Numbered from the stretch's first letter, positions 1 to 5,487 are shown. The stretch is 5,487 nucleotides of DNA from a virus (IMGVR_UViG_2526164630_000029:1-5487), one strand, 5' to 3'. Numbers and translations are program-made. The notes: a model not told the origin generated them from the letters alone.

Positions 1-164
1 CGGTACTGGAGTCGTTTCTGGAAGAGCACGGGGGCTGGAAATCCTTTCTGTGGACGCCGCCTTATGAGTGGCGGCAGATAAAGGTGACCTGCGCAAAATG
101 GTCGTCGCGGGTCAGTATGCTGCGTGTTGAGTTCAGCGCAGAGTTTGAACAGGTGGTGAACTGA
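1..164 (+). CDS. M: Minor tail protein M-like, C-terminal ~53 codons (5'-partial; gene starts upstream of window)
   Basis: Frame is open from the window start to TGA at 162-164, which overlaps the L start ATG at 164-166 (TGATG coupling). Translation ends ...EEHGGWKSFLWTPPYEWRQIKVTCAKWSSRVSMLRVEFSAEFEQVVN, which matches my recollection of the lambda gpM C-terminus. Synteny is as in lambda (M directly upstream of L). Confidence 0.7.
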   Translation, partial: VLESFLEEHGGWKSFLWTPPYEWRQIKVTCAKWSSRVSMLRVEFSAEFEQVVN

Positions 165-861
165 TGCAGGATATCCGGCAGGAAACACTGAATGAATGCA
201 CCCGTGCGGAGCAGTCGGCCAGCGTGGTGCTCTGGGAAATCGATCTGACAGAGGTCGGTGGAGAACGTTATTTTTTCTGTAATGAGCAGAACGAAAAAGG
301 TGAGCCGGTCACCTGGCAGGGGCGACAGTATCAGGCATACCCCATTCAGGGGAGCGGTTTTGAACTGAATGGCAAAGGCACCAGTACGCGGCCCACGCTG
401 GCAGTCTCTAACCTGTACGGCATGGTCACCGGTATGGTGGAAGATATGCAGAGTCTGGTCGGCGGAACGGTAGTCCGGCGTAAGGTTTACGCCCGTTTTC
501 TGGATGCGGTGAATTTTGTGGCGGGCAATCCGGAAGCGGACCCGGAGCAGGAGCTGAGCGACCGCTGGGTGGTGGAGCAGATGTCAGAGCTGACGGCCAT
601 GACAGCCTCGTTTGTGCTGGCAACACCGACGGAGACGGACGGAGCGCTGTTTCCCGGTCGCATCATGCTGGCGAACACCTGTATGTGGGATTACCGGGGA
701 GATGAATGCGGGTATAACGGTCCTGCGGTGGCGGATGAGTTCGATAAACCCACACCGATATCCGTAAGGACAGATGCAGCAAGTGCATGCGCGGGTGTGA
801 GATGCGCGGCATGGTGGCTAATTTTGGCAGTTTCCTTTCCATTAACAAACTTTCGCAGTAA
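164..861 (+). CDS. L: Tail tip assembly protein L (lambda gpL-like), interrupted by an apparent 1-nt deletion near 752-757
   Basis: ATG at 164. The N-terminal ~197 residues (MQDIRQETLNECTRAEQSASVVLWEIDLTEVGGERYFFCNEQNEKGEPVTWQGRQYQ...GPAVADEFDKPT) are lambda-L-like. After about 755 the six-frame ORF (164..871) gives an unconserved tail, whereas the frame one base back gives DIRKDRCSKCMRGCEMRGMVANFGSFLSINKLSQ with TAA at 859-861. That is the conserved Cys-rich gpL C-terminus and restores the expected ~232 aa length. Confidence 0.88.
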
Positions 862-867
862 AATCCA

Positions 868-2375: not shown

Positions 2376-2903
2376 TTATTGAATGATGCCGCAGGCCATT
2401 CTCGCACCACCACCGCCCAGGGGCTCCGGATGGTCATGATGGTTATCACCGCCAGCATGAAGCATGAGAGAACGCCCTTTAATCTCTTTTAATGAGTTCA
2501 GTCTCGGGGCCAGGACCGGGTAGTTCGCTTTTCCGTCATGCGTCACGAACAGCGCAGGGAGGTCGCCCAGGTGTCCATCCGGAGACCAGGGGCCAAGATG
2601 TTTGCCGGTGTTTTTCGGGTCAAAGTGACCGCCAGCCGATAATGCTGCGACCGGTTTTCCGTCTTTCAGTGCCGGGGCGCAATTTCCTTTTTCGTGCACA
2701 TGAAAACCATGAATGCCTTCAGACAGAGAGTGAAGGGCTGGTGTGAACAGCAGACCGTAGGGGGTCTCCTGAATGGTTATTTTTCCAATGCTGACTTCTT
2801 TTCCGTCAGCACTGACAAGGTTCATTGGGACTTCCTGTTCTGCTGCGTATCCGCATGATGCTGCTGTCAGCATGGCAATGGCAGCAATGATTTTACATTT
2901 CAT
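2376..2903 (-). CDS. sodC: Periplasmic copper/zinc superoxide dismutase (SodC family), prophage-encoded cargo gene
   Basis: 175-codon minus-strand ORF; ATG is the complement of CAT at 2901-2903, preceded by GAGGG (Shine-Dalgarno) about 5 nt upstream; stop at 2376-2378. N-terminal hydrophobic signal sequence [20 protein letters not shown]. Cu/Zn-SOD motifs are all present: [38 protein letters not shown], and the Cys pair (GNCAPA ... ACGII). The 344-aa ORF in the track (2376..3410) is an unstopped upstream extension of this gene. Confidence 0.93.
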
Positions 2904-3036
2904 AAAACCCTCATTAATTCCGTTAACAGACTGAGCTTGCTGGTTACAGGGTAACAAACAGCGTTCTGATGATATCGCGCAATAGCTGTGCAATATCCTA
3001 TCACTGCGATTAATAATACCAATTGAGAGGAACATT
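2904..3036. promoter_or_regulatory. Divergent intergenic region between sodC and J; contains the J ribosome-binding site and presumably the sodC promoter (no convincing sigma70 hexamers identified)
   Basis: 133-bp AT-richer spacer between divergently oriented sodC (ATG at 2903, minus) and J (ATG at 3037, plus). GAGAGG at 3025-3030 is a Shine-Dalgarno 6 nt before the J ATG. The 5-3-5 palindrome GTTAC-AGG-GTAAC is at 2943-2955 and an AT-rich TAATAAT at 3011-3017. By eye I could not place a good -35/-10 pair. Confidence 0.4.
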
Positions 3037-5487
3037 ATGGGCAAAGGTGGCGGCAGGGCGCACACGCCTCGAGAGGCGAAGGATAATCTCAAATCCACGC
3101 AGATGATGAGTGTGATTGATGCGATTGGTGAAGGGCCGATTGAAGGTCCGGTGAAGGGGCTGCAGAGTATCCTGGTGAACAAAACCCCGCTGATGGACAC
3201 GGACGGTAATCCCGTGATACACGGTGTGACTGCGGTCTGGCGTGCCGGGGAGCAGGAGCAGACACCACCGGAAGGCTTTGAGTCCTCCGGAGCTGAAACC
3301 GGACTGGGCGTGGAAGTGACGAAGGCAAAGCCGGTGACGCGCACCATTACGTCCGCGAACATTGACCGCCTGCGGGTTACCTTCGGGGTGCAGTCACTGG
3401 TGGAGACCACCTCAAAGGGTGACCGTAACCCGACGTCTGTCCGCCTGCTGATTCAGCTTGAGCGTGGTGGTAAATGGATGACGGAAAAGGATGTCACCAT
3501 TAACGGCAAGACCACCTCGCAGTTCCTGGCGTCGGTGATTCTGGATAATCTGCCGCCCCGGCCCTTTAACATCCGGATGGTCAGGGAGACGGCGGACAGC
3601 ACCACGGACCAGCTGCAGAATAAGACGCTGTGGTCGTCATACACCGAAATCATCGATGTGAAACAGTGCTACCCGAACACGGCCATTGTGGGGCTGCAGG
3701 TGGATGCGGAGCAGTTTGGCGGTCAGCAGATGACGGTGAACTACCATATCCGCGGTCGCATCATCCAGGTACCGTCAAACTATGACCCGGAAAAACGCAC
3801 GTACAGCGGCATCTGGGACGGCAGCCTGAAACCGGCATACAGCAACAACCCGGCCTGGTGCCTGTGGGACATGCTGACTCACCCGCGCTACGGCATGGGA
3901 AAACGTCTGGGGGCGGCAGACGTGGACAAATGGGCGCTGTATGCCATCGGGCAGTACTGCGACCAGACGGTCCCGGATGGTTTCGGGGGCACAGAGCCGC
4001 GGATGACCTTTAATGCGTACCTGTCACAACAGCGTAAGGCGTGGGACGTTCTCAGTGATTTCTGCTCGGCGATGCGCTGTATGCCGGTATGGAACGGCCA
4101 GACGCTGACGTTCGTTCAGGACCGCCCGTCGGATGTGGTGTGGCCGTACACCAACTGCGATGTGGTGGTGGATGATAACGGCGTGGGGTTCCGCTACAGC
4201 TTCAGCGCCCTGAAGGACCGCCACACGGCGGTGGAGGTGAATTACACCGACCCGCAGAACGGCTGGCAGACCTCCACGGAACTGGTGGAAGACCCGGAAG
4301 CCATACTGCGCTACGGGCGCAACCTGCTGAAGATGGATGCGTTCGGTTGCACCAGTCGCGGTCAGGCCCACCGTGCCGGGCTGTGGGTGATAAAGACCGG
4401 ACTGCTGGAAACGCAGACGGTGGATTTCACGCTCGGGTCACAGGGGCTGCGTCACACACCCGGTGACATTATTGAAATCTGTGATAACGACTATGCCGGG
4501 ACCCTGACCGGCGGACGTATCCTGTCCATCGATGCCGCCAGCCGCACCCTGACACTGGACCGTGAGGTGACGCTTCCGCAGACAGGTGCCGCCACGGTGA
4601 ACCTGATTAACGGCAGCGGTAAGCCGGTGAGCGTGGCCATCACTGCACACCCCGCGCCGGACCGGATACAGGTCAGCACCCTGCCTGATGGTGTGGAGAC
4701 ATACGGTGTATGGGGACTCTCCCTGCAGTCACTGCGTCGTCGCCTGTTCCGCTGTGTCTCCATCCGGGAAAACACGGACGGCACCTTTGCCATCACGGCG
4801 GTGCAGCACGTACCGGAAAAGGAAGCCATCGTGGATAACGGGGCCAGCTTTGAGCCGCAGTCAGGCACCCTGAACAGCGTCATCCCACCGGCAGTGCAGC
4901 ACCTGACGGTGGAGGTGAGCGCAGCTGACGGTCAGTATCTGGCACAGGCGAAATGGGACACGCCGCGGGTGGTGAAGGGCGTGCGCTTCAGTTTGCGCCT
5001 GACCAGTGGAAGCGGTCAGGACAGCCGTCTGGTGACCACCGCTATCACTGCAGACACGGAGCACCGTTTCAGTGGCCTGCCGCTCGGGGAATACACCCTG
5101 ACGGTCAGGGCGATTAACAGCTATGGCCAGCAGGGCGAACCGGCCACCACCGCGTTCCGGATTAACGCGCCTGCAGCACCCGCCAGCATTGAGCTGACGC
5201 CGGGGTATTTTCAGATAACGGCGGTCCCGCGTCTTGCGGTGTATGACCCGACGGTACAGTTTGAATTCTGGTTTTCGAGGCAAAAATCGCAGACACCGCA
5301 CAGGTGGAAACCTCTGCCCGTTATCTGGGGACCGGCAGTCAGTGGAGTGTATCCGGCCCGCACATTAAGCCCGGGAAGGATTTCTGGTTTTACGTGCGCA
5401 GCGTCAACCTGGTGGGGAAATCTGCGTTTGTGGAAGTCAGCGGGCAGCCCAGCAATGATGGTGAAGGGTATCTGGATTTTTTCCGGG
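3037..5487 (+). CDS. J: Central tail fibre / host specificity protein J (lambda gpJ-like), 3'-partial (runs off the window), with an apparent 1-nt deletion near 5276-5279
   Basis: ATG at 3037 with a GAGAGG RBS. One continuous frame 3037-~5277 gives [39 protein letters not shown]...[15 protein letters not shown]...[46 protein letters not shown]...[29 protein letters not shown]...[17 protein letters not shown]...[26 protein letters not shown], lambda-J-like throughout. After ~5277 the conserved sequence ([19 protein letters not shown]...[39 protein letters not shown]) is in the frame one base back. It is absent from the ORF track only because no stop falls inside the window. Confidence 0.92.

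What the first reader, a model, noticed from the sequence alone, without database searches (positions are those of the whole stretch)
164..5487. Six single-nucleotide deletions interrupt L, K, I and J, while sodC is intact
Every structural gene that lies fully or mostly in the window needs -1 frame corrections to give its conserved protein (sites near 755, 1159, 1319, 1543, 2123 and 5277). All six are deletions and each sits in a run of 2-6 identical bases. There are no premature stops or other decay, and the flanking protein sequence stays highly conserved. That pattern fits systematic homopolymer under-calling in the assembly better than pseudogenisation, but a genuinely defective prophage with inactivated tail-tip genes cannot be excluded from sequence alone. 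Either way, automated annotation here will produce fragmented or mis-extended ORFs, as the six-frame track shows.
Basis: partly seen in the sequence, partly recalled or inferred. Interest (0 to 1): 0.55.

Follow-up and report, generated by a model that had tools for sequence, protein, structure and literature searches.

The report
Frameshift artefacts in a draft prophage contig
The six one-base gaps that break the phage tail genes are really in this sequence record, but they are most likely consensus errors in a short, repeat-derived contig of a 2012 draft E. coli genome, so the finding is ordinary.

Summary
Against more than 60 homologous loci, the window lacks one base at w753 (L), w1157-1161 and w1319 (K), w1543 (K/I overlap), w2124|2125 (I) and w5277 (J). 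Restoring the six bases gives stop-free L (232 aa), K (247 aa), I (226 aa) and J. sodC is intact.

The window is the whole of contig AIGX01000086.1 from the draft assembly of E. coli DEC11C (O45:H2, CC20). Complete genomes of its clonal relatives carry at least four paralogous copies of this module, all unbroken at these sites. The contig is a patchwork of those copies, and that combination occurs in none of 5,426 complete genomes. Five of the six deletions, and the insertion, occur in no other locus examined. Only the G6-to-G5 change recurs.

Between w500 and w3100 there are 6 private indels against 2 private substitutions, a ratio that fits consensus error and not decay. The homopolymer explanation is weak. 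Only 1 of 23 runs of 5 or more bases is affected, four deletions are 2-to-1, and one removes a lone A.

Verdict: artefact, about 0.8. A real defective prophage is about 0.1. Low interest.

The parts
3..164 (+). 3' end of tail gene M (last 53 codons plus stop TGA at w162-164); no frame break
   Evidence: tblastn: lambda M residues 57-109 match at 100% identity. Called gene carries PF05939.
164..861 (+). Minor tail protein L, broken by one 1-nt deletion. Frame 2 up to w752, frame 1 afterwards. True stop TAA at w859-861. As deposited it reads through to w871 (235 aa).
   Evidence: The repaired 232-aa product matches PF05100 end to end, E 8.5e-95.
753..753 (+). Deletion site 1: CC to C (intact ...CCCACCACCG..., window ...CCCACACCG...). 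It lies inside a cluster of paralogue-variable positions (w745, 748, 756).
   Evidence: None of 52 other copies carrying this motif has the deletion.
860..863 (+). 1-nt insertion (AAA to AAAA) at the L stop / L-K spacer.
   Evidence: None of 33 other copies carrying this motif has it.
868..1608 (+). Tail tip protein K (JAB plus NlpC/P60 domains), broken three times. Stop TGA at w1606-1608.
   Evidence: tblastn frames 1>3>2>1. The repaired 247-aa product matches PF14464 and PF00877. It equals the copy-D K of O45:H2 FWSEC0003 except A170G.
1157..1161 (+). Deletion site 2: G6 to G5. This is the only long homopolymer affected and the only indel seen in other assemblies.
   Evidence: The resulting 108-aa product is on 24 contigs. 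None of the ten loci shown carries the window's other indels at w752, w860, w1318 or w1542.
1319..1319 (+). Deletion site 3: CC to C (GAACCTTT to GAACTTT)
   Evidence: None of 31 other copies has it.
1543..1543 (+). Deletion site 4: CC to C (CACCGCCACTGG to CACCGCACTGG). It lies in the K/I overlap, so it shifts both the K C-terminus and I after codon 12.
   Evidence: None of 50 other copies has it.
1507..2185 (+). Tail assembly protein I (226 aa from the ATG at w1507, stop TAA at w2183-2185), broken at w1543 and w2124|2125
   Evidence: tblastn frames 1>3>2. The repaired product is identical to the O103:H2-type I and matches PF06805.
2124..2125 (+). Deletion site 5: loss of a single A (CAGGACATC to CAGGCATC). 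Not a homopolymer.
   Evidence: All 43 IMG/VR matches carry the 24-nt intact form. None of 49 other copies has the deletion.
2376..2903 (-). sodC (periplasmic Cu/Zn superoxide dismutase, a moron between I and J), intact, 175 aa
   Evidence: PF00080, E 3.9e-32. The exact protein is on more than 1000 contigs. There are no mismatches to L001 over w2201-3000.
3037..5487 (+). Tail tip/host-specificity protein J, N-terminal 817 of about 1158 codons, running off the contig. Broken once.
   Evidence: tblastn frames 1>3. Pfam FNIII-A_GpJ, Phage-tail_3 and Ig_J. A fine mosaic of paralogous copies B and D.
5277..5277 (+). Deletion site 6: GG to G (TTTTCGGAGGC to TTTTCGAGGC)
   Evidence: None of 20 other copies has it.

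Best explanation
The six 1-nt deletions, and one 1-nt insertion, are consensus errors in a low-quality, repeat-derived contig of a 2012 draft assembly. They are not mutations in the bacterium.

Shown:
- The window is the complete 5,487-bp contig AIGX01000086.1 of E. coli DEC11C (O45:H2, clonal complex 20).
- The region is the lambda-type tail-tip module M-L-K-I-(sodC)-J.
- Complete genomes of the clonal relatives hold at least four copies of this module.

Inferred:
- Reads from these near-identical copies were piled into one contig, probably by 454 sequencing and Celera assembly.
- The resulting consensus hops between copies and carries single-base gaps where the multi-read alignment was poor or where 454 flow calls were short.

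The underlying genes are most likely intact, as they are in every paralogous copy examined in the relatives.
For: 1. Provenance. The frameshifted L product maps to exactly one contig, identical to the window, in GCA_000250155.2. Its proteins are named E. coli DEC11C. The AIGA-AIGZ accessions are the DECA draft collection (PMC3558956). DEC11C is O45:H2, CC20 (PMC6028524).

2. Multi-copy repeat. Genomes that match the window hold a median of 3 and up to 14 matching places, and 9-11 in the CC20 relatives. O45:H2 FWSEC0003 has copies A, B, C and D, all with unbroken L, K, I and J.

3. Patchwork.
- w1-490 matches only copy A.
- w745-1271 matches C/D.
- w1805-3123 matches B.
- J alternates between B and D at least 15 times, sometimes at single sites.
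- No complete genome exceeds 97.0% identity over the whole window, 98.4% over J, or 97.1% over w4480-5275.
- Even the repaired L and K proteins are absent from about 15 billion proteins.

4. Private indels.
- None of the 40 best of 4,404 matching records has the window's set of indels; three of the 40 are themselves a base or two short, at other sites except one shared G6-to-G5.
- No other locus examined has the indels at sites 1, 3, 4, 5 or 6 or the insertion.
- The L and I frameshift products exist only on this contig.

5. Mutation spectrum. Over w500-3100 the window has 2 private substitutions and 6 private 1-nt indels. With an indel share of about 0.1 of spontaneous mutations (my recollection of E. 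coli mutation-accumulation work), P is below 1e-4 (a similar 6-of-9 case gives 6e-5). Sequence between the breaks is identical to the intact copies, and the repaired I is 100% identical.

6. Outlier. Of 43 IMG/VR prophage loci, 7 have one or two frame breaks in L, K, I and J combined. The window has 6.

7. Platform. The same centre in the same year used 454 Titanium 3-kb paired ends and Celera 6.0 (PMC3491183). Applying this to DEC11C is an inference.
Against: - No read-level data could be examined, so the deletions cannot be shown to be absent from the DNA.
- The indels do not follow the classic 454 signature: 1 of 23 long runs is hit, four are 2-to-1, and one is a lone A.
- Fine B/D mosaicism in J also exists between complete genomes. 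UTAK-4 shares the D-like blocks, so the patchwork could be natural recombination and not collapse.
- About 10 substitutions in J match none of the copies I fetched. DEC11C may therefore carry a genuinely distinct allele.
- Frameshifted tail genes are common in real defective prophages.
- The G6-to-G5 change recurs in 24 contigs, so at that one site a real slippage event is plausible.
- The sequencing platform of DEC11C itself was not verified, because the announcement paper is not held.
Confidence: 0.8

Rival explanations
1. Genuine defective prophage. DEC11C carries a lambdoid prophage whose tail-tip genes L, K, I and J were inactivated by six independent 1-nt deletions, while the host-beneficial moron sodC is kept.
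For: - All four tail genes are hit and sodC is not.
- Prophage decay with moron retention is a known pattern (established knowledge).
- Single frame breaks occur in 7 of 43 comparable prophage loci.
- The G6-to-G5 break recurs in many assemblies.
Against: - Six 1-nt deletions against 2 private substitutions in w500-3100 is far from any known spontaneous spectrum.
- There are no nonsense mutations, larger deletions or IS elements.
- Inter-break sequence is identical to intact copies, so all six hits would have to be extremely recent and independent.
- After the first break in L there is no selection for further hits.
- No clonal relative or any other locus examined shares sites 1, 3, 4, 5 or 6.
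- sodC escaping 7 indels by chance has P of about 0.5.
Confidence: 0.1
2. Plain platform error in a correctly assembled, single-copy contig. This is the first reader's version: systematic homopolymer under-calling by the sequencer, with no role for repeat collapse.
For: - Five of six deletions and the insertion touch runs of 2 or more bases.
- All indels are 1 nt.
- 454 chemistry is likely for this project (inference).
- The G6 run is under-called here and in error-prone long-read assemblies such as L006.
Against: - 22 of 23 runs of 5 or more bases are correct, whereas 454 error rates rise with run length.
- Four hits are in 2-base runs and one is not in a run.
- Enrichment in runs is marginal (P 0.04-0.08).
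- 1.3 indels per kb would break a large share of genes if it held genome-wide, so the problem must be local (inference).
- The contig's paralogue mosaic, unique among 5,426 genomes and 15 billion proteins, points to a repeat problem.
Confidence: 0.08
3. Functional recoding: programmed frameshifting or phase-variable slippage that still yields tail proteins.
For: Lambda-type tail operons do use one programmed -1 frameshift (G/GT, established knowledge). The G-run at w1157-1161 recurs as G5 or G6.
Against: - More than 60 homologous loci, including lambda and all copies in clonal relatives, encode L, I and J in a single frame.
- K is also unbroken in most of them. The exceptions are the G6-to-G5 loci, lambda itself, and a few draft and IMG/VR loci.
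- Five sites are unique to this contig.
- The sites share no slippery motif; the lost bases sit in CC, GG or a lone A.
Confidence: 0.01

Closest known systems
Lambda tail-tip module M-L-K-I-J (phage lambda NC_001416 and lambdoid prophages of EHEC/EPEC)
   Same: - Same gene order.
- The M fragment is 100% identical to lambda M.
- L, K, I and J are 69-94% identical to lambda over most of their length (63% over the last 70 J residues in the window).
- Repaired products match Pfam Phage_tail_L, Prok-JAB plus NLPC_P60, and Lambda_tail_I, and the deposited J gene call carries the GpJ domains.
   Different: - The record carries six frame breaks.
- sodC is inserted between I and J.
- K is the long 247-aa form, whereas lambda's annotated K is 199 aa.
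sodC-bearing lambdoid prophages of CC20 E. coli (O103:H2 12009 at 2.29 Mb; O45:H2 FWSEC0003 copies at 3.375 Mb and 2.014 Mb)
   Same: - Same L-K-I-sodC-J layout.
- w500-3100 differs from these copies by only a handful of substitutions.
- The I and SodC proteins are identical.
   Different: - All their genes are intact.
- The window's first 490 nt come from a different, sodC-less copy type.
- The window's J alternates between the two sodC copies.
Repeat-collapsed or chimeric contigs in short-read or 454 draft assemblies (general assembly artefact)
   Same: - A short contig made entirely of a multi-copy element.
- It starts and ends inside prophage genes.
- It is a mosaic of paralogues not seen in finished genomes.
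- It has an excess of 1-nt indels.
   Different: Read depth and assembler flags could not be checked, so collapse is inferred and not shown.
Frameshift-rich 'complete' long-read assemblies (e.g. NZ_CP148282, locus L006)
   Same: They show 1-nt frame breaks in the same K and I genes, including the identical G6-to-G5 change, and are annotated 'frameshifted'.
   Different: They have one or two breaks per locus, mostly in G runs. The window has six, mostly in 2-base runs.

Membership tests
Lambda-type tail-tip gene module (M, L, K, I, J) | Collinear order M-L-K-I-J with K/I overlap | tested here: met
   tblastn with lambda and prophage proteins places all five in order on the + strand. I starts at w1507, inside K, which ends at w1608.
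Lambda-type tail-tip gene module (M, L, K, I, J) | Family domains: PF05100 (L), PF14464 plus PF00877 (K), PF06805 (I), GpJ domains (J) | tested here: met
   Repaired L, K and I pass the Pfam cut-offs. The J domains are on the called gene.
Lambda-type tail-tip gene module (M, L, K, I, J) | Uninterrupted reading frames | tested here: not met
   There are six -1 nt frame steps in the record. The frames are met only after restoring six bases.
Periplasmic Cu/Zn superoxide dismutase SodC (prophage moron) | Full-length Sod_Cu domain in an intact ORF | tested here: met
   PF00080 profile positions 3-133 of 133, E 3.9e-32. The exact 175-aa sequence is widespread.
Genuine pseudogenes of a decaying prophage | Lesions present in the organism's DNA (read-level or independent confirmation) | not testable with these tools
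   No reads are available. No second assembly of DEC11C was found: the best complete-genome match is 97.0%.
Genuine pseudogenes of a decaying prophage | Lesions shared with related strains or loci | tested here: not met
   Sites 1, 3, 4, 5 and 6 and the insertion are absent from all other loci examined. Only G6-to-G5 recurs.
Genuine pseudogenes of a decaying prophage | Accompanying relaxed-constraint changes (substitutions, stops, larger indels) | tested here: not met
   Repaired ORFs are stop-free and I is 100% identical to the intact copy. There are 2 private substitutions against 6 indels in w500-3100.
454-type homopolymer miscalls | Indels lie in homopolymer runs, with frequency rising with run length | tested here: inconclusive
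   Runs affected are of length 2, 6, 2, 2, 1, 2 (deletions) and 3 (insertion). Only 1 of 23 runs of 5 or more bases is hit. Enrichment P is 0.04-0.08.
454-type homopolymer miscalls | Assembly made from flow-based (454) reads | not tested
   The DECA announcement is not held. A sister project at the same centre used 454 Titanium and Celera 6.0. This is an inference only.
Repeat-collapsed or chimeric draft contig | Sequence is multi-copy in the genome (as judged from closed relatives) | tested here: met
   There are 9-11 places per CC20 genome. Four copies were fetched from FWSEC0003.
Repeat-collapsed or chimeric draft contig | Contig is a combination of paralogues not found in finished genomes | tested here: met
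   Best matches are 97.0% over the whole window, 98.4% over J and 97.1% over w4480-5275. Repaired L and K are absent from 15 billion proteins.
Repeat-collapsed or chimeric draft contig | Read depth several-fold above the genome mean, or mixed bases in the pile-up | not testable with these tools
   There is no access to reads or assembly metadata.
Programmed ribosomal frameshift | Frame change conserved in homologues at a slippery site | tested here: not met
   Homologues read L, I and J in one frame. K is also unbroken in most, and the K breaks that exist lie at other sites or at G6-to-G5.

The most novel reading that the evidence does not exclude
The deletions are real. DEC11C would then carry a recombinant (A/D/B mosaic) sodC prophage in which all four tail-tip genes were knocked out by a burst of 1-nt deletions, while the sodC moron was preserved. 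That would be very recent, multi-hit domestication of a prophage, perhaps during a transient mutator phase.
Probability: 0.1. Interest if true: 0.3.

Novelty: not a real feature. Interest (0 to 1): 0.07.

Why it matters
The value is mainly practical. It shows that frame breaks in short prophage contigs of early draft assemblies should not be read as pseudogenes. It also shows that the deposited proteins EHX00341, EHX00342 and EHX00343 (a 235-aa L, a 108-aa K fragment and a mis-extended I) are annotation artefacts that now sit in protein databases. If the deletions were real, they would be a modest example of prophage domestication with moron retention, which is already a well-known theme. No open question depends on it.

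Tried and rejected
- I looked for the DECA genome announcement (Hazen et al. 2012) by DOI and PMC id to confirm the platform. It is not held. Accession searches for AIGX or GCA_000250155 gave only an irrelevant hit.
- I checked whether another 246-aa or 279-aa I product in the same protein cluster shares the w2124 deletion. It does not. Those proteins shift a few codons further downstream.
- I checked whether ML775 (L004, L annotated 'frameshifted') shares site 1. It does not. It lost a G four bases away.
- I tested whether the repaired L and K exist anywhere, which would show that the mosaic is natural. Neither does.
- I considered using the intactness of sodC as evidence of selection. I rejected this, because the chance expectation is about 0.5.
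- I considered using J mosaicism alone as proof of chimerism. I rejected this as insufficient, because the complete genome UTAK-4 shows similar B/D blocks.
- I did not use the metagenome or GTDB scans, because they would not bear on a single-strain question.
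Full report
**What is in the window**

The window holds these features in order:
- the 3' end of tail gene M
- L
- K
- I, which overlaps the 3' end of K
- sodC, on the minus strand
- the first 817 codons of J

This is the lambda tail-tip module with a sodC moron. The exact frameshifted L product maps to a single public contig that is identical to the window from end to end. 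That contig is AIGX01000086.1 of assembly GCA_000250155.2. Its deposited proteins EHX00341, EHX00342 and EHX00343 are labelled Escherichia coli DEC11C. The AIGA-AIGZ accessions are the DECA draft collection (PMC3558956). DEC11C is O45:H2 and belongs to clonal complex 20, together with O103:H2 strain 12009 (PMC6028524).

**Checking the observation**

I aligned the window globally to intact copies from UTAK-4 and O103:H2 12009. This gives six 1-nt deletions in the window:

| Site | Position | Change | Gene |
|---|---|---|---|
| 1 | after w752 | CC to C | L |
| 2 | w1157-1161 | G6 to G5 | K |
| 3 | w1319 | CC to C | K |
| 4 | w1543 | CC to C | K/I overlap |
| 5 | w2124\|2125 | lone A lost | I |
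| 6 | w5277 | GG to G | J |

There is also one 1-nt insertion, AAA to AAAA at w860-863, in the L-K spacer.

tblastn with lambda and prophage proteins shows the matching frame steps. L goes 2>1, K goes 1>3>2>1, I goes 1>3>2 and J goes 1>3. Restoring the six bases yields stop-free L (232 aa), K (247 aa), I (226 aa, identical to the reference) and J. Each repaired L, K and I passes its Pfam model. sodC is intact, and its exact sequence occurs on more than 1000 contigs.

There are three corrections:
- The w2124 event is not in a run.
- An insertion was missed.
- The w1543 event hits both K and I.

**Are the indels seen elsewhere?**

Of 4,404 matching records among the complete E. coli genomes, the 40 best matches to w600-2300 almost all span 1705 bases against 1701 in the query. 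They therefore lack the window's indels. Three records were a base or two shorter, and I aligned each of them. Their breaks are at other sites, apart from one shared G6-to-G5.

A scan of IMG/VR for the site-5 motif, with or without the A, found 43 loci. All carry the intact form. Across all 63 other loci fetched, none shares sites 1, 3, 4, 5 or 6 or the insertion.

The 108-aa K fragment produced by G6-to-G5 occurs on 24 contigs from many assemblies, but the ten shown do not carry the window's other indels at w752, w860, w1318 or w1542. The L and I frameshift products are unique to this contig among about 15 billion proteins.

**The contig is a patchwork of paralogous prophage copies**

Complete CC20 genomes hold 9-11 places that match this module. 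I fetched four copies from O45:H2 FWSEC0003:

| Copy | Position | sodC |
|---|---|---|
| A | 1.73 Mb | no |
| B | 3.375 Mb | yes |
| C | 0.825 Mb | no |
| D | 2.014 Mb | yes |

All four have unbroken L, K, I and J.

Site-by-site painting of the window against these copies gives the following:
- w1-490 matches A only.
- w491-744 is identical in all copies.
- w745-1271 matches C/D only.
- w1805-3123 matches B.
- J alternates between B and D at least 15 times, sometimes at single sites.

No complete genome matches this combination. The best identity is 97.0% over the whole window, 99.3% over w1-1000 (copy A, which lacks the D-type sites), 98.4% over J, and 97.1% over w4480-5275. Even the repaired L and K proteins exist nowhere else. 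The repaired K equals the copy-D K apart from one private substitution.

**Mutation spectrum**

Over w500-3100 the window is otherwise identical to copies B or D. In that stretch it has 2 private substitutions (w1374, w2030) and 6 private 1-nt indels.

Small indels make up roughly a tenth of spontaneous mutations in E. coli. This figure is my recollection of mutation-accumulation studies and was not checked here. On that basis the observed ratio has a probability below 1e-4. A comparable 6-of-9 case gives 6e-5.

There are no nonsense codons, larger deletions or IS elements, and the sequence between the breaks has not drifted. For comparison, 7 of 43 IMG/VR loci carry one or two frame breaks across these four genes. 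The window carries six.

**Mechanism**

- Four deletions are in 2-base runs, of which there are 815.
- One deletion removes a lone A.
- One event is an insertion.
- Enrichment of indels in runs of 2 or more bases is marginal, P 0.04-0.08.

At 1.3 indels per kb, an assembly-wide problem would break a large share of genes. I therefore infer that the problem is local to this contig.

A contemporaneous project at the same sequencing centre used 454 Titanium 3-kb paired ends and Celera 6.0 (PMC3491183). If DEC11C was handled the same way, two things follow. Reads from copies that are 95-99% identical would be merged into one unitig. The consensus would then flip between copies and be prone to gaps.

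Several indels do lie within a few bases of positions where the paralogues differ (site 1 among w745/748/756, and sites 4 and 5). This step is an inference. Read depth could not be examined.

**What argues the other way**

- Fine B/D mosaicism also exists between finished genomes. The J of UTAK-4 shares the D-like blocks.
- About ten substitutions in J match none of the copies I fetched.
- DEC11C may therefore hold a genuinely distinct recombinant prophage.
- Single real frame breaks in prophage tail genes are common.
- The G6 tract is a plausible natural slippage site.

These points keep a real defective prophage alive at about 0.1. They do not explain six private 1-nt deletions accompanied by almost no substitutions.

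Programmed frameshifting is excluded. Homologues read L, I and J in one frame, and the K breaks that occur elsewhere lie at other sites or at G6-to-G5.

**Verdict**

The 'artefact' reading is supported, at about 0.8 for repeat-contig consensus error plus about 0.08 for plain platform error. The 'homopolymer' detail is not well supported.

The locus itself is a known kind, a lambdoid tail-tip module with a sodC moron, as in O103:H2 12009. The interest is low and mostly practical. The deposited L, K and I proteins of this contig are annotation artefacts.

Read mapping, or Sanger sequencing of DEC11C across the seven sites, would settle the question.

Noticed in passing
L008 (lambda NC_001416) locus 1134-1268 and 1268-1864; record about 14133-14875: The reference lambda K gene is annotated as 199 aa. 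The 247-aa K of prophages aligns to lambda in two frames. Residues 1-45 (start of the JAB domain, MTQTESAILAHARRC...) lie upstream in another frame, with the break near GGAGGC|TATTTCC. Homologues have GGAGGCGTATTTTC. Lambda's own K therefore looks 1-nt frame-broken or N-terminally truncated relative to its relatives.
   Followed up: partly
window 1507-1608; L001 3004-3106: RefSeq annotates I as 193 aa from a GTG (equivalent to w1605). Homology to the 223-aa lambda I extends to an ATG at w1507, giving 226 aa, with about 100 nt of out-of-frame overlap with the end of K. The w1543 deletion therefore damages two genes at once.
   Followed up: yes
window 860-863: There is an extra A (AAA to AAAA) at the L stop codon / L-K spacer. 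It is a seventh 1-nt indel, is not in the finding, and is absent from all 33 other copies that carry the motif.
   Followed up: yes
window 1157-1161; loci L006, L012-L021: The G6-to-G5 frameshift in K recurs on 24 contigs from many assemblies, including two different prophage copies in one chromosome (CP014752). Several of these loci have other fragmented tail genes. It is either a homopolymer error hotspot or a natural slippage hotspot.
   Followed up: partly
proteins P0032 and P0034 (cluster of the window's I product): Two other assemblies, one a 5.6-Mb chromosome and one a Logan contig, have a different frameshift a few codons downstream in I (...DISTRDEGGAERSWLSGG...). It runs into the same +1 tail, which ends ...GERIYRPEE. 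The 3' end of I therefore seems prone to frame breaks in records.
   Followed up: partly
L011 (NZ_CP031916 3.375 Mb) and L065 (2.014 Mb): O45:H2 FWSEC0003 carries two separate sodC-bearing lambdoid prophages with the same L-K-I-sodC-J layout, and both encode the identical SodC protein (WP_000649829.1). Over the window's span they differ at about 158 sites (about 97% identity).
   Followed up: partly
window 2376-3410 (minus strand): The ORF list shows a 344-aa GTG-initiated ORF that extends sodC upstream across the start of J on the opposite strand. The real sodC is the 175-aa ATG ORF at w2376-2903, and the extension is a mechanical artefact.
   Followed up: yes
IMG/VR loci L023, L026, L030, L038, L046, L059, L063: Seven of 43 IMG/VR prophage contigs that carry this module have one or two frame breaks in L, K, I or J. 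This gives a background rate for such breaks in public prophage sequences. Whether they are errors or real decay was not examined.
   Followed up: no
window 1374: There is a private non-synonymous substitution in K (A170G). It is absent from copies A-D of FWSEC0003 and from the O103:H2-type reference copy. The other private change in w500-3100 (w2030) leaves the I protein unchanged.
   Followed up: partly
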